DNA of 64,000 bases from Shigella phage vB_SdyM_006: the sequence record MK295204; one strand, given 5' to 3'. Shown here one piece after another: positions 1,128 to 46,650 of this stretch. A model generated the notes under the pieces. That model ran no database searches. It was given only the letters and a program-made list of their open reading frames with translations, and had not been told where the DNA came from. Both the position numbers and the translations under genes were made by a program. The first letter of the stretch is position 1; each line of letters opens with the position of its first letter.

Positions 1128-1203
1128 TGGTACACCTACGGGAATTCGAATCCCGGTTACACGCTCGAAAGGCGTGGGTCCTAGACCACTAGACGATAGG
1201 TGC
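1128..1203 (-). tRNA. tRNA-Glu (anticodon UUC)
   Basis: Manual cloverleaf on reverse complement: 7-bp acceptor stem, T-loop TTCGAAT, anticodon loop CTTTCGA, 3' CCA encoded. Confidence 0.8.
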
Positions 1204-1210
1204 ATTAAAA

Positions 1211-1302
1211 TGGAGGAGAGTATGGGATTCGAACCCATGGAACAGCGTAACTGTCCAACGGTTTTCAAGACCGTCTCAATAATCCATCTCTGACAACTCT
1301 CC
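1211..1302 (-). tRNA. tRNA-Ser (anticodon UGA), type II with long variable arm
   Basis: Acceptor GGAGAGT/ACTCTCC, anticodon loop CTTGAAA, long variable arm, T-loop TTCGAAT, CCA encoded. Confidence 0.8.
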
Positions 1303-1309
1303 AATATAA

Positions 1310-1627
1310 TTAAAACAGTAGACTATAAACAGTACCTTTACAATCTATAGGTTGTGTTTTTGAATATTCTTTAAATAGATTTAAATAACCAATTTCTTCA
1401 GGTTCCCATTGTCCTTCTAAACCATAACATGAACAATGTGAGCCGTTAACTTCCCAAAATATATCATTACTATCTTTGAAGATTACAGTAGCATACCCAG
1501 AATAATCTTCATAATCGTAATATGCTAAAATGATTTCTTTGTCATTAAGTGAATCCATAGGGATTTGGAATTCATGACAGATGTCTTCTTTTGAAGTAAA
1601 CAGTTCCATAAACACATTAGTTTTCAT
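1310..1627 (-). CDS. hypothetical protein
   Basis: Track ORF 1310..1720 trimmed to internal ATG at 1625-1627 (MKTNVF...) because the 5' extension overlaps tRNA-Asp. Confidence 0.45.
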   Translation of the reverse strand: MKTNVFMELFTSKEDICHEFQIPMDSLNDKEIILAYYDYEDYSGYATVIFKDSNDIFWEVNGSHCSCYGLEGQWEPEEIGYLNLFKEYSKTQPIDCKGTVYSLLF

Positions 1628-1650
1628 ATCAATATCCTCAAAATTAATTT

Positions 1651-1726
1651 TGGCGGTCTTACCGAGAATCGAACTCGGTGCTGTTCCGTGACAGGGAACT
1701 ATGTTAACCAGGTACACCATAAGACC
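1651..1726 (-). tRNA. tRNA-Asp (anticodon GUC)
   Basis: Acceptor GGTCTTA/TAAGACC, anticodon stem GTTCC/GGAAC with loop CTGTCAC, T-loop TTCGATT, CCA encoded. Confidence 0.8.
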
Positions 1727-1919
1727 TTAAAAATGTACCCATCCGGCTTTCCAGTCTGGTGAAGGGTTGTCACCTCTAGTTTAAACCTGCTAGTCAAGTA
1801 ATAATTGCATATCGTCCAATTATCAAAACCGTCTAGGTTATATTACACCACTTCCTAGAATACCGTCTAAGCGGACTTGATCGACGTAGATTACACCATA
1901 TACGTCTGATTGTGGAATT

Positions 1920-1994
1920 TGGAGCGATCTACGGGTATCGAACCCGTATCTTCTGGGTGGAAACCAGAAATAATAGCCATTATACTAAGATCGC
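1920..1994 (-). tRNA. tRNA-Gly (anticodon UCC)
   Basis: Perfect acceptor stem GCGATCT/AGATCGC, anticodon loop TTTCCAC, T-loop TTCGATA, CCA encoded. Confidence 0.85.
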
Positions 1995-2615
1995 ATATTT
2001 ATTAATAAATCTTCTTGCTTGGGTATGACTTAATCCTATATGTTTAGCAAATTTATTTAAGTTACCTCTTATTGAAATATCAAATGATTTTAATATTTCT
2101 AATCTATAATTAATTTCGTCTTTTGACAATGTAGAGGCATTATTAATAGAAATTTTGTTTTTAGATATATCCGAATGTCTCTTATTTTTAAAACCAAACG
2201 AATTTTTCTTTTTGCTAAAATCATATAATCCGAGTCTAAGTCTTTTCTTAAATGTATTAACTTGTTTACTTATAGTTAATTTAGATTTTGGCAATGAATT
2301 TATATAATCCCAACCACCTTCACCACCAACTTTTAAATTATATGTATTTTTGCTTTTAACAAATTTTTCTGTAACTATTTTGGCTTCATGTATAAACATG
2401 TCATACTTATTTTTATGAAATTTTAAAATAGTTTTTTCAAAATTTTCTTTGCCATATTTTTCTATGGCTTTTTTCAAAATCTTACCTGAACCAAAATATC
2501 CATCTTCTAAATCTTTGGTTTTATGAACACCTATATAAATTTTATTATTTATTTTATTTTTAATTTTGTATGTATAATAAAACATTATAGCCTTATTTAT
2601 CTTTTGGTACTCCAT
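1980..2615 (-). CDS. GIY-YIG homing endonuclease (Seg-like) embedded in the tRNA cluster
   Basis: N-terminal GIY-YIG motif (FYYTYKIKNKINNKIYIGV...GSG), basic C-terminal region; T4 segB sits in the equivalent tRNA region; 3' end overlaps tRNA-Gly by 15 nt. Confidence 0.6.
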   Translation of the reverse strand: MEYQKINKAIMFYYTYKIKNKINNKIYIGVHKTKDLEDGYFGSGKILKKAIEKYGKENFEKTILKFHKNKYDMFIHEAKIVTEKFVKSKNTYNLKVGGEGGWDYINSLPKSKLTISKQVNTFKKRLRLGLYDFSKKKNSFGFKNKRHSDISKNKISINNASTLSKDEINYRLEILKSFDISIRGNLNKFAKHIGLSHTQARRFINKYAILV

Positions 2616-2779
2616 TCTTTATTAGTTGCTTTATTAACAGCAGTAGAATAAGAATTTTTAATATCTTCTGTAACAGAATAGCCAGTTAACATAGTAGAAA
2701 TTAAAATAACATATCCAAGCATTAATAAAATACAAGATAAAAATCCTGCAATAATAAGAATTGTACCTAAAGTAGTCAT
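2597..2779 (-). CDS. small hydrophobic (membrane) protein
   Basis: Track ORF 2597..2890 trimmed to internal ATG at 2777-2779 (MTTLGTILIIAGFLSCILLMLGYVILI...) because the 5' extension overlaps tRNA-Met/Ile. Confidence 0.35.
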   Translation of the reverse strand: MTTLGTILIIAGFLSCILLMLGYVILISTMLTGYSVTEDIKNSYSTAVNKATNKEWSTKR

Positions 2780-2798
2780 ATTGTTCTCACAAATTATT

Positions 2799-2874
2799 TG
2801 GTGACCCACCATGGAATCGAACCATGCTCCAACGCTTATGAGGCGTTCGCTTTCAACCAGTAAGCTAGAGGGCC
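2799..2874 (-). tRNA. tRNA with CAU anticodon (Met, or Ile if lysidine-modified)
   Basis: Anticodon stem AACGC/GCGTT with loop CTCATAA, T-loop TTCGATT, CCA encoded; one T-T mismatch in acceptor stem. Confidence 0.7.
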
Positions 2875-2881
2875 TTGCAAT

Positions 2882-2966
2882 TGGTGGCACCGGGTAGACT
2901 CGAACTACCGAAGGCCGAAGCCTGGAGATTTACAGTCTCCTGTCATTGCCGCTAGACTACGATGCC
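2882..2966 (-). tRNA. tRNA-Tyr (anticodon GUA), type II
   Basis: Acceptor GGCATCG/CGGTGCC, discriminator A, anticodon loop CTGTAAA, long variable arm, CCA encoded. Confidence 0.8.
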
Positions 2967-3011
2967 TTTTCTTATCAATAACGACTAAAAATAATCGTTA
3001 TTAATCAGAAT

Positions 3012-3088
3012 TGGTACACACTACTGGATTCGAACCAGTGACCTACGGTTTAGAAGACCGTTGCTCTATCCATCTGAGCTAAGCATGC
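3012..3088 (-). tRNA. tRNA-Arg (anticodon UCU)
   Basis: D-stem GCTC/GAGC, anticodon stem ACGGT/ACCGT with loop CTTCTAA, T-loop TTCGAAT, CCA encoded; three G-U pairs in acceptor stem. Confidence 0.75.
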
Positions 3089-3089
3089 A

Positions 3090-3380
3090 TTATAAGTACT
3101 GTTTAATCAGTTCTTCGTTATTTTTAAAAAGAATAAAAATATTATCACGAACTTCAGTATCTGAGATATGCCATTTCATAGCATCAATTAAAATGTCTTT
3201 TGGGATCATATTATATAAATTATTTAGTAAAGCAATATTATTTATATCAATATCAACTTCAAATAATTCAAAAATACAACACGAAATAGAATCATAAAAA
3301 TCTTTAATGTCTATTTCATACTTAGACAAATTATTTATAAATTCTGTTTTAGCTTGTTCTGGATTATGTGCTTTAAACAT
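3090..3380 (-). CDS. hypothetical protein
   Basis: ORF in track, same strand as neighbours, no recognisable motif. Confidence 0.45.
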   Translation of the reverse strand: MFKAHNPEQAKTEFINNLSKYEIDIKDFYDSISCCIFELFEVDIDINNIALLNNLYNMIPKDILIDAMKWHISDTEVRDNIFILFKNNEELIKQYL

Positions 3381-3402
3381 TTTTATTCCTATTATTCTAA
3401 AA

Positions 3403-3477
3403 TGGCAGGCTCTGTAGGAATCGAACCCACGTCTTCGGATTTGGAATCCGGTATTCTACCGACTGAACTAAGAACCT
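3403..3477 (-). tRNA. tRNA-Trp (anticodon CCA)
   Basis: Acceptor AGGTTCT/AGAGCCT, anticodon loop TTCCAAA, T-loop TTCGATT, CCA encoded. Confidence 0.75.
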
Positions 3478-3478
3478 T

Positions 3479-3562
3479 TGGCGGGCAGTGTAGGATTCGA
3501 ACCTACGTCGTCAAATGACACGGATTAACAGTCCGCTGCTTAATCCACTCAGCCAACTACCC
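3479..3562 (-). tRNA. tRNA with GUU (Asn) anticodon but type-II architecture (13-nt variable arm)
   Basis: Acceptor GGGTAGT/ACTGCCC, discriminator G, 3-bp D-stem, anticodon stem GCGGA/TCCGT with loop CTGTTAA, variable-arm hairpin GTCATTTGAC, CCA encoded. Confidence 0.6.
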
Positions 3563-42820: not shown

Positions 42821-43156
42821 TTATACCTCAAACAATCGTATTTTAAGACTAGTTGTATATTTGATTTCTAAATTATAAACTTTACCACTATAAACAACAA
42901 GAATTTTATTTGGGTTTTCTTCACACCACATTATATTATCGTCATTAATAATGTTTAAAAATTCTAGCTCTGAATAACAAGCCCACGAGAATGATTTACT
43001 TAAAAACTCTTTTAAATCAAGCCAATCGGTTTCGTCACAAATAGCAGGACTCATAACAGCAAGTTTGTGGGTATATGTTTCTTTATCACACCAACGAGTA
43101 AAAAACACTTCACGTTTTTCTTCTAAAGGAATAACACCAGCAGTATACCAAGACAT
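42821..43156 (-). CDS. hypothetical protein
   Basis: ORF in track; C-terminal segment similar to that of the next ORF. Confidence 0.45.
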   Translation of the reverse strand: MSWYTAGVIPLEEKREVFFTRWCDKETYTHKLAVMSPAICDETDWLDLKEFLSKSFSWACYSELEFLNIINDDNIMWCEENPNKILVVYSGKVYNLEIKYTTSLKIRLFEV

Positions 43157-43165
43157 AATAATTCC

Positions 43166-43450
43166 TTATTTGATTGGGATGATTCTAAATTTGTATTCAC
43201 CGCCACGAGTAAATTTAACTTCTAACTGAGTTGATTCACCAATGTAAAGAACCAAAATTGAATTTTTATTAGAACGTAACCAGTCTTGATATTCTTCAAA
43301 AGACTTGCGTAAAGATGGGATGCTATTTTTATATCGGCCTAAAATAGTCCATGAGAATTCACCACTGCCCATCCATTTAGTGGAACGGTCATATTTTAAA
43401 AGGTTTTCAATATCAATATTTAACCATGTTTTAAAGTTTTCTTTAATCAT
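43166..43450 (-). CDS. hypothetical protein
   Basis: ORF in track; C-terminus ...ILVLYIGESTQLEVKF resembles ...ILVVYSGKVYNLEIKY of ORF 42821..43156. Confidence 0.45.
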   Translation of the reverse strand: MIKENFKTWLNIDIENLLKYDRSTKWMGSGEFSWTILGRYKNSIPSLRKSFEEYQDWLRSNKNSILVLYIGESTQLEVKFTRGGEYKFRIIPIK

Positions 43451-43650: not shown

Positions 43651-43831
43651 AATCTTTACAGATATCCAAGAGTTTTTTGTTTAAAGCTTCAACAAATTCT
43701 GTAGCTGAATCAGGGTATTCGTTAAATAAATAACACAAATACTCACTATGTATTTCATGGGCCACTTGAGAAACCATAGTCTTAAGTTCTTTATTCATAT
43801 AATCACCTCTCAATAATGTGTATTCTATCAT
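43625..43831 (-). CDS. hypothetical protein
   Basis: ORF in track. Confidence 0.4.
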   Translation of the reverse strand: MIEYTLLRGDYMNKELKTMVSQVAHEIHSEYLCYLFNEYPDSATEFVEALNKKLLDICKDFEENNDKS

Positions 43832-44237
43832 CTAAAATATCATTAAGCATAGGACCAATGACATCCCAATTTAAGCCACCATTAGAACACCCTGGTTTAG
43901 GCAGGAGAACTCTTTTAAAATTGTTATTAGATACTATCTCCATTAATTCTAATGCACTCTTACGTATCAGGTCTTTATCAGACTTGTTATACCAATCATG
44001 TTTAGTAGGAAATGATATTAAATTAATGTTATTATATTTCGTAAGAATTCTGCATACATGGCCGTATTGGATTAAGGATTTAGCCATGATTAAGTCTAAA
44101 TTAGGAACCTTCAACGAAAAGAGACGGGCAATTCCGGCTCCCATAACAGCTCTTTTATTTTTCTTGATATTCATGTTTGTTGTAATGCAAATAGCATCAC
44201 AAGGGATATCAAGAATATTTCCAGATACTATTTTCAT
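43803..44237 (-). CDS. putative macro-domain protein (ADP-ribose binding/hydrolase-like)
   Basis: Motif resemblance to macro domains: DAICITTNMN...AVMGAGIA and LLPKPGCSNGGL; unverified. Confidence 0.4.
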   Translation of the reverse strand: MKIVSGNILDIPCDAICITTNMNIKKNKRAVMGAGIARLFSLKVPNLDLIMAKSLIQYGHVCRILTKYNNINLISFPTKHDWYNKSDKDLIRKSALELMEIVSNNNFKRVLLPKPGCSNGGLNWDVIGPMLNDILDDRIHIIER

Positions 44238-44656
44238 AAAGCTTCTTTTAAAACTTCTATAGCATGCTTAATTTCAAAAGGGATACCTTCTGATGGATGC
44301 TGGCGAATGTTATCGTCAATATGACTAAAATCCATGCCAATTACACGGACTTTATATTTTTGCTCACTATCAAATTCTGATATATTAGAACCCCAAGTGT
44401 TTGATGATGTAACTTCTTTAGTCTCAAAATAAGTACATCCACAATGACAATATTCGTGCCAAAAATCACAGTCTTTATCAAATAAAGGGTGGTCTTCGCG
44501 AAGAGTTAAATATACCGCATAACTCCAATCCGGACGACCATCATTAAATAAAGCTTTATAACTAGGTGGTAATCCTGTAAACCATGAAGTAACTTCAATA
44601 GCTTCGCCTTTCTTTTTATCTGCATGAACAGTGTATACATATTTTTGAATAGACAT
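44234..44656 (-). CDS. hypothetical Cys/His-rich protein
   Basis: ORF in track; CDFWHEYCHCGC cluster suggests metal binding. Confidence 0.45.
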   Translation of the reverse strand: MSIQKYVYTVHADKKKGEAIEVTSWFTGLPPSYKALFNDGRPDWSYAVYLTLREDHPLFDKDCDFWHEYCHCGCTYFETKEVTSSNTWGSNISEFDSEQKYKVRVIGMDFSHIDDNIRQHPSEGIPFEIKHAIEVLKEAL

Positions 44657-44854
44657 TTATTTTACCTCAATAATAGTGAGTTCAGTATCTTCTGTCAAAT
44701 CACAAAAGTCAAAAGCCAATGCAGCAATACCTGGGTATTCTGATTCGTCAATAATACATTCAGTATTATTATTTTTGATGTCTAAGGCTAATTGATAATT
44801 AGACGTAGTAAATCCAAGTTCAAGTTCTTCGCACCATACGGTATACTTTTTCAT
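44657..44854 (-). CDS. hypothetical small protein (tandem paralogue 1)
   Basis: 65 aa; shares WCEE...GF.T..YQLA...ELT.IEVK pattern with the adjacent 64-aa ORF. Confidence 0.5.
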   Translation of the reverse strand: MKKYTVWCEELELGFTTSNYQLALDIKNNNTECIIDESEYPGIAALAFDFCDLTEDTELTIIEVK

Positions 44855-45049
44855 TTATTTTACCTCAATGAGTTCACAATCGTATAAACAACTACACAGT
44901 TCACAAAAAGAATAAGCCGATGCATATGAATCAGTGTCTATCCAAAACCCAAGATTATCAATAGCACCTTTACGAACTTCATAAGCAAGTTGATAATCAA
45001 CTGTTTCAAATCCAATTTTCTTTTCTTCGCACCATACTATATATTTCAT
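44855..45049 (-). CDS. hypothetical small protein (tandem paralogue 2)
   Basis: 64 aa; paralogue of 44657..44854. Confidence 0.5.
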   Translation of the reverse strand: MKYIVWCEEKKIGFETVDYQLAYEVRKGAIDNLGFWIDTDSYASAYSFCELCSCLYDCELIEVK

Positions 45050-45894
45050 GAGTATTCCTTGTCATAATAAGAATCTGGAGTAAAAATATTTAACATATTT
45101 GTAGAATTATCAATAGTAATAATATTTTCCTGTTCAACTTCAGGTGTATAATATTTTAAAAACTCTTCTTTAACGTATTTTACTGGATCACTTTTATAAT
45201 CGTCAGTAGAAATATCAAATAATTCAATTGTATACGTATCAAGCCATTTTTCAGAACATGTTAATCGTCCACATAATAATCCATCATAAACGATAGCATA
45301 TTCAATATGGCCCCATTTATATGAGCTATCAGCGTCGTGTCTGATTAGATAAAACTTAATATCAGAATTCTCACAATCATCACTAATATTGTCACGAACA
45401 TCGTATTCATTGAGCTCGGTCAATTCACTTAAAGCATTAATAAACAGGTTTTTATATTGAGGGCCAGTTACTAACTTATCTTCTGTTAGTTCTTTCTCAA
45501 TAAATTCTTTTAAAGTTAAAACTGGCAATTCATACTTAGGAAATAATGCAGTTTCAGTAATAGTGCCGATATTCAATTCGGCCAATTTCTTAATAACAGA
45601 ATCTTCAGCTTTATCAGAATCAGTCCAAATATGAAGAACTTTAAAATTATGATTATTCCAAATTTTTTGTGGGTCAACATCAATCACATCTTGGGTTTTA
45701 GACAAAAACATTAAAAGGTAATCAGAATCATTCCACCCTACTGGGTTTTCGTATTTTTGAATGACTAGATATTGGAAATCAGTCATTAATGCATTATATC
45801 TTTCTTTAGAAGCTAAAGAAGTAGAATCCATAGATGAAGAAAAAGCTTCAATAACACTAGCTGGGTTTTTAATTAACATTTTGAATAGTCCCAT
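45046..45894 (-). CDS. hypothetical protein
   Basis: 282-aa ORF in track, no recognised motif. Confidence 0.5.
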   Translation of the reverse strand: MGLFKMLIKNPASVIEAFSSSMDSTSLASKERYNALMTDFQYLVIQKYENPVGWNDSDYLLMFLSKTQDVIDVDPQKIWNNHNFKVLHIWTDSDKAEDSVIKKLAELNIGTITETALFPKYELPVLTLKEFIEKELTEDKLVTGPQYKNLFINALSELTELNEYDVRDNISDDCENSDIKFYLIRHDADSSYKWGHIEYAIVYDGLLCGRLTCSEKWLDTYTIELFDISTDDYKSDPVKYVKEEFLKYYTPEVEQENIITIDNSTNMLNIFTPDSYYDKEYS

Positions 45895-46115
45895 GTGATT
45901 TTAACACGATCATGATATATTACTCTATCATGGCTTTTTGAAACTGTAAATCCTTTTTCTTTAAGAATTTCAATCAACGCATCTTTAATGGCTTCATTTT
46001 CTGGAAGCTTTGCGTAATGCTCTGTACTATCATGCAAAGCCAGTTGGCAAATATCATTTAACACAATAGCTAAATTGTGTTCAACAACAGTATTTTTAAG
46101 ATCAGATAAATTCAT
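45873..46115 (-). CDS. hypothetical protein
   Basis: ORF in track. Confidence 0.4.
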   Translation of the reverse strand: MNLSDLKNTVVEHNLAIVLNDICQLALHDSTEHYAKLPENEAIKDALIEILKEKGFTVSKSHDRVIYHDRVKITWDYSKC

Positions 46116-46200
46116 ATTATTCTCACAGTTGCGAATTGATGATGTGTATACTATATTATAAAATAGTGTTTGTAAACATCTAAAATAATTTAAAATAAAT

Positions 46201-46229: not shown

Positions 46230-46271
46230 ATACATATTGAAACGAAACATGAAAAACAAATGGAGTATATT

Positions 46272-46616
46272 ATGAATAAGACACAAATCAATGCAGTTTT
46301 AAAAACTTTAGGTTATGGTAATTTACGTTATTCTAATGGTAAAACATACCGCAGAGGAAACTCTATGGTTAAAGGTTTTCATTTAATTTCTACTGGTGCA
46401 TGTATGGTGACTTCACCAGAAACACAAAAATTTAGTGATCTTGTTAATGAGTTAAAACAACATTTTGAATTACAATCATATTATGACAATTGCATGGCAA
46501 TATTTGTGACAGGAAAATTAAAAATTGTTGTTTGTTTAACAAATTTTAATACATACGGTGGCTTAAACCCAGATTATAAAACATGGTTTGCATCTGTTAA
46601 TATTGAAAAGTTATAA
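46272..46616 (+). CDS. hypothetical protein
   Basis: Start set at the cassette ATG (MNKTQ...) 8 nt after GGAG; lone plus-strand gene among minus-strand genes. Confidence 0.5.
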   Translation: MNKTQINAVLKTLGYGNLRYSNGKTYRRGNSMVKGFHLISTGACMVTSPETQKFSDLVNELKQHFELQSYYDNCMAIFVTGKLKIVVCLTNFNTYGGLNPDYKTWFASVNIEKL

Positions 46617-46621
46617 AACAA

Positions 46622-46650
46622 AAATGGGACCGTAAGGTCCCATTTTCAAA
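46622..46650. terminator. bidirectional terminator (ATGGGACC-GTAA-GGTCCCAT)
   Basis: 8-bp stem; T-runs on both strands; sits between convergent genes. Confidence 0.6.

What the first reader, a model, noticed from the sequence alone, without database searches (positions are those of the whole stretch)
44657..45049. Tandem duplicated small ORFs (65 and 64 aa)
Adjacent same-strand ORFs share a clear pattern (M.KY.VWCEE...GF.T..YQLA......ELT/ELIEVK) with several conserved Cys and acidic residues. Tandem paralogues of small proteins in phage accessory regions are often rapidly evolving host-interaction or anti-defence factors.
Basis: seen in the sequence. Interest (0 to 1): 0.4.

Follow-up and report, generated by a model that had tools for sequence, protein, structure and literature searches.

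The report
Two old small phage paralogue genes
Two adjacent 64- and 65-codon genes in a T4-like Proteus phage are real, anciently duplicated copies of a small, phage-only protein domain of unknown function, and they sit in a conserved gene block next to a likely anti-defence enzyme.

Summary
Both ORFs lie on the minus strand: B (64 aa, 44855-45049, upstream) and A (65 aa, 44657-44854). They share 43% identity (E 2e-12, shuffle z = 19).

The window is a Bragavirus, 97% identical to Proteus phage phiP4-3. Both proteins match phrog_21221, which has no known function.

The pair is not a recent duplication. A and B form separate, well-supported clades. phiP4-3-like phages keep both, PM2-like phages keep only A, and Morganella/Providencia phages keep only B.

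They belong to a wider family of a ~62-aa domain found so far only in phages and metagenomes. It has 110 representatives at 50% identity, the consensus YIVWN..KTEGF.T.D.QLAYEVRKG...NC, and no Pfam or NCBIfam model. B keeps this motif; A has lost most of it.

AlphaFold models for both are confident (pLDDT 92-95) and give a beta-beta-alpha-alpha-beta fold with no significant structural match.

Both proteins are acidic (pI 4.0-4.3) and under purifying selection. B is nearly invariant, while A carries a mosaic patch.

The genes always precede a 140-aa protein and a DarG-like macrodomain. Function is unproven. My best guess is that they are non-enzymatic binding modules in a counter-defence block. 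Interest is modest.

The parts
44855..45049 (-). Gene B, 64 aa. This is the upstream paralogue and it keeps the family motif T-x-D-YQLAYEVRKGAIDN.
   Evidence: ORF. It matches phrog_21221 at E 1e-37. It is 100% identical in protein to phiP4-3 gp089 and 64-66% identical to the single-copy gene of Morganella and Providencia phages. The AF2 model has pLDDT 92.5.
44657..44854 (-). Gene A, 65 aa. This is the downstream, diverged paralogue. The motif has changed to YQLALDIKNNNTEC, and the protein has a net charge of about -10.
   Evidence: ORF. It matches phrog_21221 at E 2.5e-32. It is 95% identical to phiP4-3 gp090 and 68-70% identical to the single-copy gene of PM2 and SJ_PmiM. The AF2 model has pLDDT 95.2 with the same fold as B. 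The pI is 4.05.
44710..44850 (-). Polymorphic, mosaic patch inside gene A. It covers roughly residues 2-48, which include helix 1 and the following loop.
   Evidence: Metagenome phage L031 is 100% identical to the window in the flanking DNA (gene B and the 140-aa gene). Inside this patch identity drops to 62-82%, and the L031 sequence there is PM2-like.
44863..44866 (-). GAGG Shine-Dalgarno sequence for gene A. It lies inside the last codons of gene B (IEVK-stop), and the TAA stop abuts the ATG of A.
   Evidence: Read directly from the sequence.
44665..44668 (-). GAGG Shine-Dalgarno sequence for the 140-aa gene. It lies inside the last codons of gene A, which end in the same 15-nt sequence as gene B.
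   Evidence: Read directly from the sequence.
45046..45894 (-). Upstream gene X, 282 aa, of unknown function. Its stop overlaps the start of B (ATGA). It is linked to B-type genes in other phages.
   Evidence: ORF. It is 29-30% identical to the 251-252-aa proteins that precede the B-type gene in MP1 and PSTRCR_121. The same arrangement occurs in L032. PM2 lacks exactly X plus B. It has no Pfam, PHROG or PDB match.
44234..44656 (-). Downstream gene Y, 140 aa, rich in Cys and His, belonging to phrog_20299. It always follows the A/B gene.
   Evidence: Synteny is shown. Only 8 clusters of homologues exist, all in this phage group.
43803..44237 (-). DarG-like macrodomain protein, 144 aa. It is the last member of the conserved block X-B/A-Y-Macro.
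   Evidence: It matches the PADLOC DarG model at E 1.5e-18 over DarG residues 3-135. Its best PDB sequence matches are 5m31, 5m3e and 5m3i. I recall these as DarG macrodomain entries; the tool labels them 'Appr-1-p processing domain protein' and 'RNase III inhibitor'. The Pfam Macro score is 21.5 bits, just under the cut-off of 22. It matches phrog_335.
45873..46115 (-). First gene of the cluster, 80 aa, belonging to phrog_8208.
   Evidence: It is 46% identical to the PM2 orthologue.
46155..46184 (-). Sigma-70-like promoter candidate upstream of the cluster (TTTAGA-18-TATAAT). This is a consensus match only.
   Evidence: The MP1 record annotates a promoter at the equivalent place after gene 54. 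The number of consensus matches in the region is not above the shuffle expectation, so this part is tentative.
46619..46648 (-). Intrinsic-terminator-like hairpin after baseplate gene 54. It separates the late baseplate operon from the accessory cluster.
   Evidence: A 13-bp stem followed by a T-run. MP1 annotates a terminator at the same place.

Best explanation
A and B are two real, co-transcribed and translationally coupled genes in an accessory cluster of a T4-like Proteus phage. The cluster lies between baseplate gene 54 and RNA ligase 2 and is probably expressed early.

Shown: they are old paralogues of a compact ~62-residue beta-beta-alpha-alpha-beta domain that so far turns up only in phages and viral metagenomes. 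B is the conservative copy. It keeps the family's near-invariant polar motif on helix 1 and the loop after it (T16, D18, Q20, A22, Y23, E24, R26, K27, N32). A is the diverged, more acidic and polymorphic copy. It has replaced most of those residues but keeps the fold.

Inferred: the domain is not an enzyme. It is a stand-alone binding module that docks onto a conserved partner through helix 1. The two copies have split or changed that binding specificity.

More speculative: in this phage group they work as stoichiometric counter-defence or host-interaction factors together with the neighbouring Y protein and the DarG-like macrodomain.
For: Paralogy is significant.

Both genes are under purifying selection. 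dN/dS is 0-0.46 among close relatives and about 0.25 between genera.

The tree shows an old split. The T4-like subfamily is monophyletic at 81% bootstrap, with the B clade at 95% and the A clade at 100% on a long branch. Retention differs between lineages. Both copies occur in the window, phiP4-3, L030 and L031. Only A occurs in PM2 and SJ_PmiM. Only B occurs in MP1, Rgz1, the PSTRCR phages and L032.

The wider family has 110 representatives at 50% identity and 135 clusters at 90%. Most are 62-70-aa stand-alone proteins. Others carry the domain at either end, joined to unrelated extensions: a HicB-like N-terminus, REC-like C-termini and Zn-ribbon-like tails. That pattern is typical of a binding or adaptor domain.

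The near-invariant columns are listed. There is no Pfam or NCBIfam model.

The family gave no match in plasmids. A scan of one genome per 185,579 species, using the single exact peptide QLAYEVRK, found no relative.

The AF2 models are confident and agree for both copies. Both proteins are acidic, with pI 4.0-4.3.

The stop and start codons abut, and a GAGG sits inside the upstream gene's last codons.

The block X-B/A-Y-Macro is conserved in three phage lineages, and the macro protein is DarG-like.

There is precedent for small phage proteins and orphan antitoxin-like enzymes that neutralise DarT (PMC11481870, PMC11825919).

Copy A carries a sharply bounded mosaic patch over the helix-1 region, while the flanking DNA is 100% identical.
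Against: No experiment or homology ties the family to any function.

The near-invariant polar residues and three partly conserved cysteines could equally mark a catalytic or metal or ligand site.

In the roughly 25 other genomic contexts I examined, the domain sits among replication, nucleotide-metabolism and ligase genes with no constant partner. No macrodomain was detected next to it. The link to the DarG-like gene is therefore specific to the Morganellaceae-phage subfamily and may be coincidental.

dN/dS gives no sign of positive selection.

The early-promoter assignment rests on consensus matches that are not enriched over shuffles.
Confidence: 0.4

Rival explanations
1. The domain is a small-ligand or RNA-end sensor or sponge that works with RNA-repair and ADP-ribose-processing enzymes. 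It would bind a phosphorylated product such as ADP-ribose, ADPr>p or a 2',3'-cyclic phosphate end, through the T/D/N plus R/K site at the start of helix 1.
For: A canonical member lies immediately downstream of a bona fide cREC_REC protein (58.9 bits) in a 168-kb phage contig. Another lies immediately upstream of RtcB (304 bits). Three representatives fuse the domain to a REC-like C-terminal domain with sub-threshold cREC_REC hits of 23.6 and 17.8 bits. In the window the genes share a cluster with a macrodomain and RNA ligase 2. cREC, Macro and RtcB are linked to RNA repair and ADPr>p processing in PMC9503650.
Against: Most contexts lack any such gene. A profile comparison of the fused C-termini with the genuine cREC domain did not align them. 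Copy A has lost the putative site yet persists alone in PM2-like phages. No ligand-binding fold was recognised.
Confidence: 0.15
2. The domain is a minimal, degenerate GIY-YIG-like module that binds or nicks nucleic acid.
Confidence: 0.07
3. This is the first reader's version: a recent tandem duplication whose copies are diverging fast under an arms race.
For: The genes are adjacent and share a 15-nt identical 3' end plus similar 5' ends. Copy A is polymorphic and mosaic among near-identical phages. An anti-defence-like gene lies nearby.
Against: A and B each have closer relatives in other phages than each other. The clades are separated with 95-100% support. B is nearly invariant and more conserved than its neighbours. 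dN/dS is below 0.5 throughout.
Confidence: 0.1
4. The ORFs have no protein function of their own and persist as translational-coupling spacers that carry the ribosome-binding sites of downstream genes.
For: The last codons of both genes encode the GAGG of the next gene, and the stop and start codons abut.
Against: Full-length protein conservation extends across genera and to distant phages. The models give a confident, shared predicted fold. dN/dS is well below 1.
Confidence: 0.02

Closest known systems
PHROG families phrog_21221 and phrog_18211 (function unknown)
   Same: Both window proteins match phrog_21221 end to end (E 1e-37 and 2.5e-32). Canonical relatives match both PHROGs.
   Different: The PHROG entries carry no function, no structure and no description of the motif, the A/B split or the domain fusions.
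AdfB (ICP1 Gp145, 77 aa) and the C-terminal DarT-binding domain of DarG2, both stoichiometric DarT blockers (PMC11481870)
   Same: Both are small phage-encoded proteins with no recognisable enzymatic fold. The precedent shows that DarT can be neutralised by direct binding; according to that paper, DarG's C-terminal domain does this by mimicking negatively charged ssDNA. Here two acidic small proteins sit in a conserved block with a DarG-like macrodomain that lacks the DarT-binding domain.
   Different: tblastn with A, B and a canonical member found no Vibrio phage ICP1 record. I did not obtain the AdfB sequence, so it was never compared directly. No functional test exists, and most family members elsewhere have no macrodomain neighbour.
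GIY-YIG nuclease superfamily (I-TevI, PD-T4-3)
   Same: The order of secondary-structure elements is the same. GIY-YIG proteins recur as weak structural hits.
   Different: The scores are not significant and there is no sequence or profile similarity. The third helix and its Asn are missing, the motif spacing differs, and the proteins are acidic.
Orphan antitoxin-like ADP-ribosylglycohydrolases of phages (AdfN NADAR, PMC11825919; DarG2-like macro of chimalliviruses, PMC13309987)
   Same: These concern the neighbouring 144-aa gene. It is a stand-alone DarG-like macrodomain in a T4-like phage.
   Different: This comparison applies to the neighbour, not to A or B. The activity of the Proteus-phage macro protein is untested.

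Membership tests
phrog_21221 / 'YIVWN-GF-T-D-QLAYEVRKG-NC' small phage domain family | Full-length, significant match to the profile HMM | tested here: met
   B matches at E 1.1e-37 over residues 1-64. A matches at E 2.5e-32 over residues 2-65. Both were recovered in the exhaustive HMM search.
phrog_21221 / 'YIVWN-GF-T-D-QLAYEVRKG-NC' small phage domain family | Near-invariant polar motif (T16, A22, Y23, E24, R26, K27, N32, F48; present in at least 90% of 64 diverse members) | tested here: inconclusive
   B has all of these residues. A keeps only T, A and F, and changes Y to L, E to D, R to K, K to N and N to E. The feature is therefore met for B and not for A.
phrog_21221 / 'YIVWN-GF-T-D-QLAYEVRKG-NC' small phage domain family | Shared beta-beta-alpha-alpha-beta fold | tested here: met
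   The AF2 model of B has pLDDT 92.5 with elements E2-7, E12-16, H19-27, H39-53 and E58-63. The model of A has pLDDT 95.2 with the same order plus a short extra helix. These are predictions, not experimental structures.
GIY-YIG nuclease superfamily | Match to a GIY-YIG profile, or GIY / YIG motifs with catalytic Arg, Glu and Asn at the canonical spacing | tested here: not met
   No Pfam GIY-YIG hit appears for the window proteins or for 107 family members.
GIY-YIG nuclease superfamily | Significant structural similarity to a solved GIY-YIG domain | tested here: inconclusive
Phage anti-defence proteins (DarT blockers or DNA mimics) | Demonstrated inhibition of a defence system, or binding to its effector | not testable with these tools
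   This needs plaque assays, toxicity rescue or pull-downs.
Phage anti-defence proteins (DarT blockers or DNA mimics) | Small, acidic, and encoded next to other counter-defence genes | tested here: met
   The pI values are 4.05 and 4.31. A DarG-like macrodomain lies two genes downstream in a block conserved in three lineages. This evidence is circumstantial only.
HicB-like antitoxins | Match to HicB or HicB_lk_antitox profiles | tested here: not met
   A and B have no such hit. Only a distant relative, P0012, carries a separate HicB-like N-terminal domain in front of the family domain.
Ankyrin repeats | Repeated 33-residue helix-loop-helix units | tested here: not met
   The only PDB sequence hits of the family profile are designed ankyrins, at E 0.24-0.73 and through the 'KGADxNxxDxDG' stretch alone. 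The domain is single-copy and contains beta strands.

The most novel reading that the evidence does not exclude
The family could be a previously undescribed, phage-specific binding domain that recognises a product or component of ADP-ribose or RNA-end chemistry. In the Morganellaceae T4-like phages, A and B, possibly as a heterodimer and together with protein Y, would supply the toxin-blocking half of a split, phage-encoded DarG2 analogue. The neighbouring macrodomain would supply the ADP-ribose-removing half.
Probability: 0.1. Interest if true: 0.65.

Novelty: new member of a known kind. Interest (0 to 1): 0.33.

Why it matters
As it stands this is an ordinary case: uncharacterised small accessory genes in a plastic region of a T4-like phage, already catalogued as hypothetical proteins and as a PHROG.

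Three things give it some value. First, the ~62-aa domain has an unusually sharp conserved motif, confident models, no Pfam entry and no recognisable fold, and was found here only in phages and metagenomes, so it is a clean target for structure and function work. Second, the natural A-only, B-only and A-plus-B phages, and the mosaic allele of A, form a ready-made comparative series. Third, the conserved linkage to a DarG-like macrodomain gives a concrete and cheap hypothesis to test: counter-defence against DarTG2.

Tried and rejected
**Family and homology searches**
- Pfam, NCBIfam and PADLOC scans of A, B and relatives found nothing for the domain.
- The PDB sequence search with the family profile returned only spurious ankyrin hits.
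- The GIY-YIG lead was tested by profile comparison and not supported.
- The final large-database search, on protein Y, showed only that Y is confined to the same phage group.

**The cREC link**
- The N-terminus of the genuine cREC neighbour is not a divergent copy of the domain.
- The fused REC-like C-termini could not be aligned to the genuine cREC domain by hhalign. I therefore call them 'REC-like' only.

**Searches for a conserved partner or other hosts**
- A Pfam scan of 115 neighbouring ORFs from 17 viral or metagenome loci turned up NAD-dependent DNA ligase (2 ORFs, loci L014 and L046), RtcB, DNA polymerase, ThyX and helicases, but nothing recurrent.
- tblastn against plasmids found no match.
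- The scan of 185,579 species' genomes for QLAYEVRK found no relative.

**Ideas considered and dropped**
- I looked for a cysteine 'migration' (N7 to C7 paired with C33 to L/I) as evidence of a metal site. Members exist with both or neither cysteine, so I dropped it.
- T4 late-promoter and MotA-box searches in the cluster gave no late promoter and a single MotA-box match inside gene X.
- Internal sigma-70-like matches inside A and at the start of B are not above the shuffle expectation.

Full report
**1. What is there**

The window is a T4-like myovirus of Proteus. The 2.2 kb around the finding is 97% identical to Proteus phage phiP4-3 (Straboviridae, Bragavirus).

The two ORFs are on the minus strand and abut each other. 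B runs from 44855 to 45049 (64 aa) and lies upstream. A runs from 44657 to 44854 (65 aa) and lies downstream.

The two proteins are 43% identical by BLASTP (E 2e-12). Their local alignment score is 19 standard deviations above 5000 shuffles, and no shuffle came close. Both match phrog_21221, a family of unknown function, over their whole length.

One detail qualifies the conserved C-terminus. Both genes end with ATTGAGGTAAAATAA, followed directly by the next ATG. The codons for IEVK-stop therefore also provide the GAGG ribosome-binding site of the next gene, which is A after B and the 140-aa gene after A.

**2. Genomic setting**

On the minus strand the order is as follows:

| Position (window) | Element |
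|---|---|
| upstream | baseplate genes 51-27-28-29-48-54 |
| 46648-46619 | terminator-like hairpin |
| 46260-46616 | 118-aa gene on the opposite strand |
| 45873-46115 | 80-aa gene |
| 45046-45894 | X, 282 aa |
| 44855-45049 | B |
| 44657-44854 | A |
| 44234-44656 | Y, 140 aa, Cys/His-rich, phrog_20299 |
| 43803-44237 | macrodomain protein, 144 aa |
| downstream | several small genes (one DUF2774), then RNA ligase 2 |

Starts and stops overlap or abut along the whole run, so this looks like one polycistronic accessory cluster. A sigma-70-like promoter candidate lies at 46184-46155. Such consensus matches are not enriched over shuffles, however.

The macrodomain protein is DarG-like. It matches the PADLOC DarG model at E 1.5e-18, aligned to the macrodomain part of DarG. 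Its best PDB sequence relatives are 5m31, 5m3e and 5m3i. I recall these as DarG macrodomain entries; the tool labels them 'Appr-1-p processing domain protein' and 'RNase III inhibitor'. Stand-alone antitoxin-like ADP-ribosylglycohydrolases that defeat DarTG are documented in phages (PMC11825919, PMC13309987).

**3. Distribution and history of the two copies**

tblastn against 50,697 phage records finds the family only in T4-like phages of Morganellaceae. Only phiP4-3 has two copies.

- PM2 and SJ_PmiM (Bragavirus) have one gene, 68-70% identical to A.
- Morganella phages MP1 and Rgz1 and Providencia phages PSTRCR_121 and PSTRCR_127 (Gualtarvirus) have one gene, 64-66% identical to B.
- Two metagenome contigs, L030 and L031, repeat the full 80-X-B-A-Y-macro order. 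A third, L032, has X-B-Y-macro.

A neighbour-joining tree with canonical outgroups shows the following:

- The T4-like subfamily is monophyletic (81% bootstrap).
- The B clade has 95% support.
- The A clade has 100% support and sits on a long branch.

The duplication therefore predates the Bragavirus/Gualtarvirus split, or A diverged explosively right after it. Lineages then kept both copies, only A, or only B. PM2 lacks exactly X plus B: its homology to the window breaks at 44848 and resumes at 45898.

**4. How the two copies evolve**

B is unusually stable. It is 65% identical to the MP1 orthologue, whereas the flanking genes are 29% (X), 46% (Y) and 54% (macro) identical. Among four phiP4-3-like phages its dN is at most 0.006.

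A is the variable copy, with dN up to 0.15 among the same four phages. L031 is 100% identical to the window in DNA across B and across Y, but only 62-82% identical in a patch of about 140 bp inside A (roughly 44710-44850). In that patch L031 is PM2-like. This is a sharp mosaic or allelic-exchange patch covering helix 1 and the following loop.

All pairwise dN/dS values are below 0.5. Both genes are thus under purifying selection, with no global sign of positive selection.

**5. The wider family**

A word-indexed search of 5.8 billion proteins with the T4-like subfamily profile found only 11 clusters. An exhaustive HMM search of 1.84 billion representatives found 110 at E 0.001 or better. A handful of these are long repeat proteins, explained below as spurious ankyrin-type matches.

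The genuine relatives define a ~62-residue domain with the consensus YIVWN..KTEGF.T.D.QLAYE[VA]RKG[AS]..NC...G..S..A.AFC.....DCT.EE. The columns T16, A22, Y23, E24, R26, K27, N32 and F48 are at least 90% conserved across 64 diverse members.

Most members are 62-70-aa stand-alone proteins. Others carry the domain at the N- or C-terminus of 100-270-aa proteins. The partners include:

- a HicB-like N-terminal domain (P0012);
- REC-like C-terminal domains with sub-threshold cREC_REC hits (P0071, P0082, P0086);
- Cys-rich zinc-ribbon-like tails.

No Pfam or NCBIfam model covers the domain. PHROGs has two unannotated families for it.

The domain gave no match in plasmids. A scan of one genome per 185,579 prokaryotic species, using the single exact pattern QLAYEVRK, found no relative. 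Among cultured phages outside the Morganellaceae group, tblastn with one canonical member found it only in a Burkholderia jumbo phage and a 200-kb Bacillus phage.

B keeps the full family motif. A has changed Y23 to L, E24 to D, R26 to K, K27 to N, G28 to N and N32 to E. The T4-like subfamily as a whole has WC instead of WN and has lost the Cys after N32. The three cysteines of the canonical family are therefore not an obligate triad.

**6. Structure**

The AlphaFold2 model of B, built from a 12-sequence alignment, has mean pLDDT 92.5 and pTM 0.77. Its elements are beta(2-7), beta(12-16), alpha(19-27), alpha(39-53) and beta(58-63). The model of A, built from a 49-sequence alignment, has pLDDT 95.2 and the same order plus a short extra helix.

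No search gave a significant structural match:

- Foldseek against PDB gave a best E of 2.4.
- Foldseek against BFVD gave a best E of 0.019, to an uncharacterised Proteus siphophage protein.

GIY-YIG domains (PD-T4-3, I-TevI, an SLX1 homologue, two viral endonucleases) recur among the weak hits and share the order of elements. Against this, there is no GIY-YIG Pfam hit in any member, and a profile comparison with I-TevI is null. I treat GIY-YIG as an unproven lead. The AFDB50 library was unavailable.

The family profile's only PDB sequence hits are designed ankyrins, through a 'KGADxNxxDxDG' stretch. That probably explains the giant repeat proteins at the bottom.

**7. Context elsewhere**

I examined about 25 other loci. 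The domain sits in early or nucleic-acid-metabolism regions of very different phages. Its neighbours include DNA polymerases, ThyX, helicases, 7-deazaguanine synthesis genes, methyltransferases, GapR/DUF2800, and NAD- or ATP-dependent DNA ligases. There is no constant partner.

Two adjacencies stand out. One member lies directly downstream of a genuine cREC_REC protein (58.9 bits). Another lies directly upstream of RtcB (304 bits).

Together with the REC-like fusions and the macro/Rnl2 cluster in the window, this gives a thin but repeated link to RNA-end and ADP-ribose chemistry, as framed in PMC9503650. The two profile comparisons meant to firm up the cREC identity of the fused domains failed.

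**8. Interpretation**

Shown:
- A and B are real genes and significant paralogues.
- The split is old, with differential retention across lineages.
- B is conservative; A is diverged and mosaic.
- Both have a confident shared predicted fold and are acidic (pI 4.0-4.3).
- They belong to a domain family found here only in phages and metagenomes.
- They sit in the conserved block X-B/A-Y-DarG-like macro.

Inferred:
- The domain is a non-enzymatic binding module. It is tiny, it is promiscuously fused at either end of unrelated proteins, and its invariant residues cluster on one helix and its N-terminal cap.
- A and B have divided or changed its specificity.

Speculative:
- In these phages the pair acts in counter-defence with the macrodomain. 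One possibility is that they act as DarT-blocking proteins. The precedent is AdfB, a 77-aa ICP1 protein that neutralises DarT, likely by direct binding (PMC11481870). tblastn with A, B and a canonical member found no ICP1 record; AdfB itself was not compared.

I put about 0.4 on the binding-module/counter-defence reading, 0.15 on a ligand-sensor role tied to RNA repair and ADPr processing, and below 0.1 on a GIY-YIG-like nucleic-acid function.

**9. Verdict**

The word 'duplicated' overstates how recent the event was, and 'rapidly evolving' applies only to copy A.

The genes are already deposited as hypothetical proteins (phiP4-3 gp089 and gp090) and catalogued in PHROGs, so this is a new member of a known, uncharacterised kind. 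Interest is modest at 0.33. It is lifted slightly by the sharp motif, the absence of any recognised fold or Pfam entry, the natural A/B/A+B series, and the testable link to a DarG-like gene.

Noticed in passing
window 43803-44237 (-): This is a 144-aa stand-alone DarG-like macrodomain (PADLOC DarG E 1.5e-18; best PDB relatives 5m31 and 5m3i, which I recall as DarG macrodomains). It is probably an orphan antitoxin-like counter-defence enzyme against DarTG2. The ORF is intact in phiP4-3, but the GenBank record annotates only a 46-aa CDS (phiP43_092) there.
   Followed up: partly
window about 44710-44850, compared with L031 1620-1817: The DNA is 100% identical to a metagenome phage on both sides, but only 62-82% identical in a ~140-bp patch inside gene A. 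In that patch L031 carries PM2-like sequence. This looks like a sharply bounded recombination or allele-swap patch.
   Followed up: yes
window 44855-45894, compared with PM2 (L003): Proteus phage PM2 lacks exactly the 282-aa gene plus gene B. Its homology to the window stops at 44848 and resumes at 45898. This is a clean two-gene indel between two species of the same genus.
   Followed up: partly
window 43166-43450 (-) and 42821-43156 (-): A second pair of adjacent genes (94 and 111 aa) shares a C-terminal motif, ILV(L/V)Y.G....LE(V/I)K(F/Y)T (BLASTP E 2e-6). Morganella phage MP1 has a 214-aa protein that hits both, so another small tandem or fused paralogue family lies four genes downstream.
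   Followed up: partly
window 46260-46616 (+): A single 118-aa gene lies on the opposite strand, wedged between the gene-54 terminator hairpin and the accessory cluster. It is only 46% identical to its PM2 counterpart and has no family match in PADLOC; it was not scanned against Pfam or PHROGs.
   Followed up: no
window 1131-3562 (-): A cluster of nine tRNA genes is present (Rfam RF00005, 50-67 bits).
   Followed up: no
window 45650-45850 and 43850-43950: Further short patches show reduced identity (84-94%) to the otherwise near-identical phage L031. They lie inside the 282-aa gene and near the 3' end of the macrodomain gene, just upstream of the 68-aa gene. Against phiP4-3, the 282-aa gene has a run of four adjacent amino-acid changes (residues 77-80).
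   Followed up: no
L021 5465-6252 and L015 4923-6741: In unrelated large phage contigs, canonical members of the domain family lie directly next to a genuine cREC_REC protein and directly next to RtcB RNA ligase, respectively.
   Followed up: partly
P0004: NCBI labels a B-type homologue (59% identical) on a 40.7-kb contig as a Vibrio cholerae TPA protein. This is most likely T4-like phage DNA inside that assembly.
   Followed up: no
The family HMM picks up ankyrin repeats through the stretch 'KGADxNxxDxDG...LA'. This probably accounts for the giant repeat proteins (up to 3250 aa) among the weak hits, and is probably convergent helix-loop-helix sequence.
   Followed up: partly
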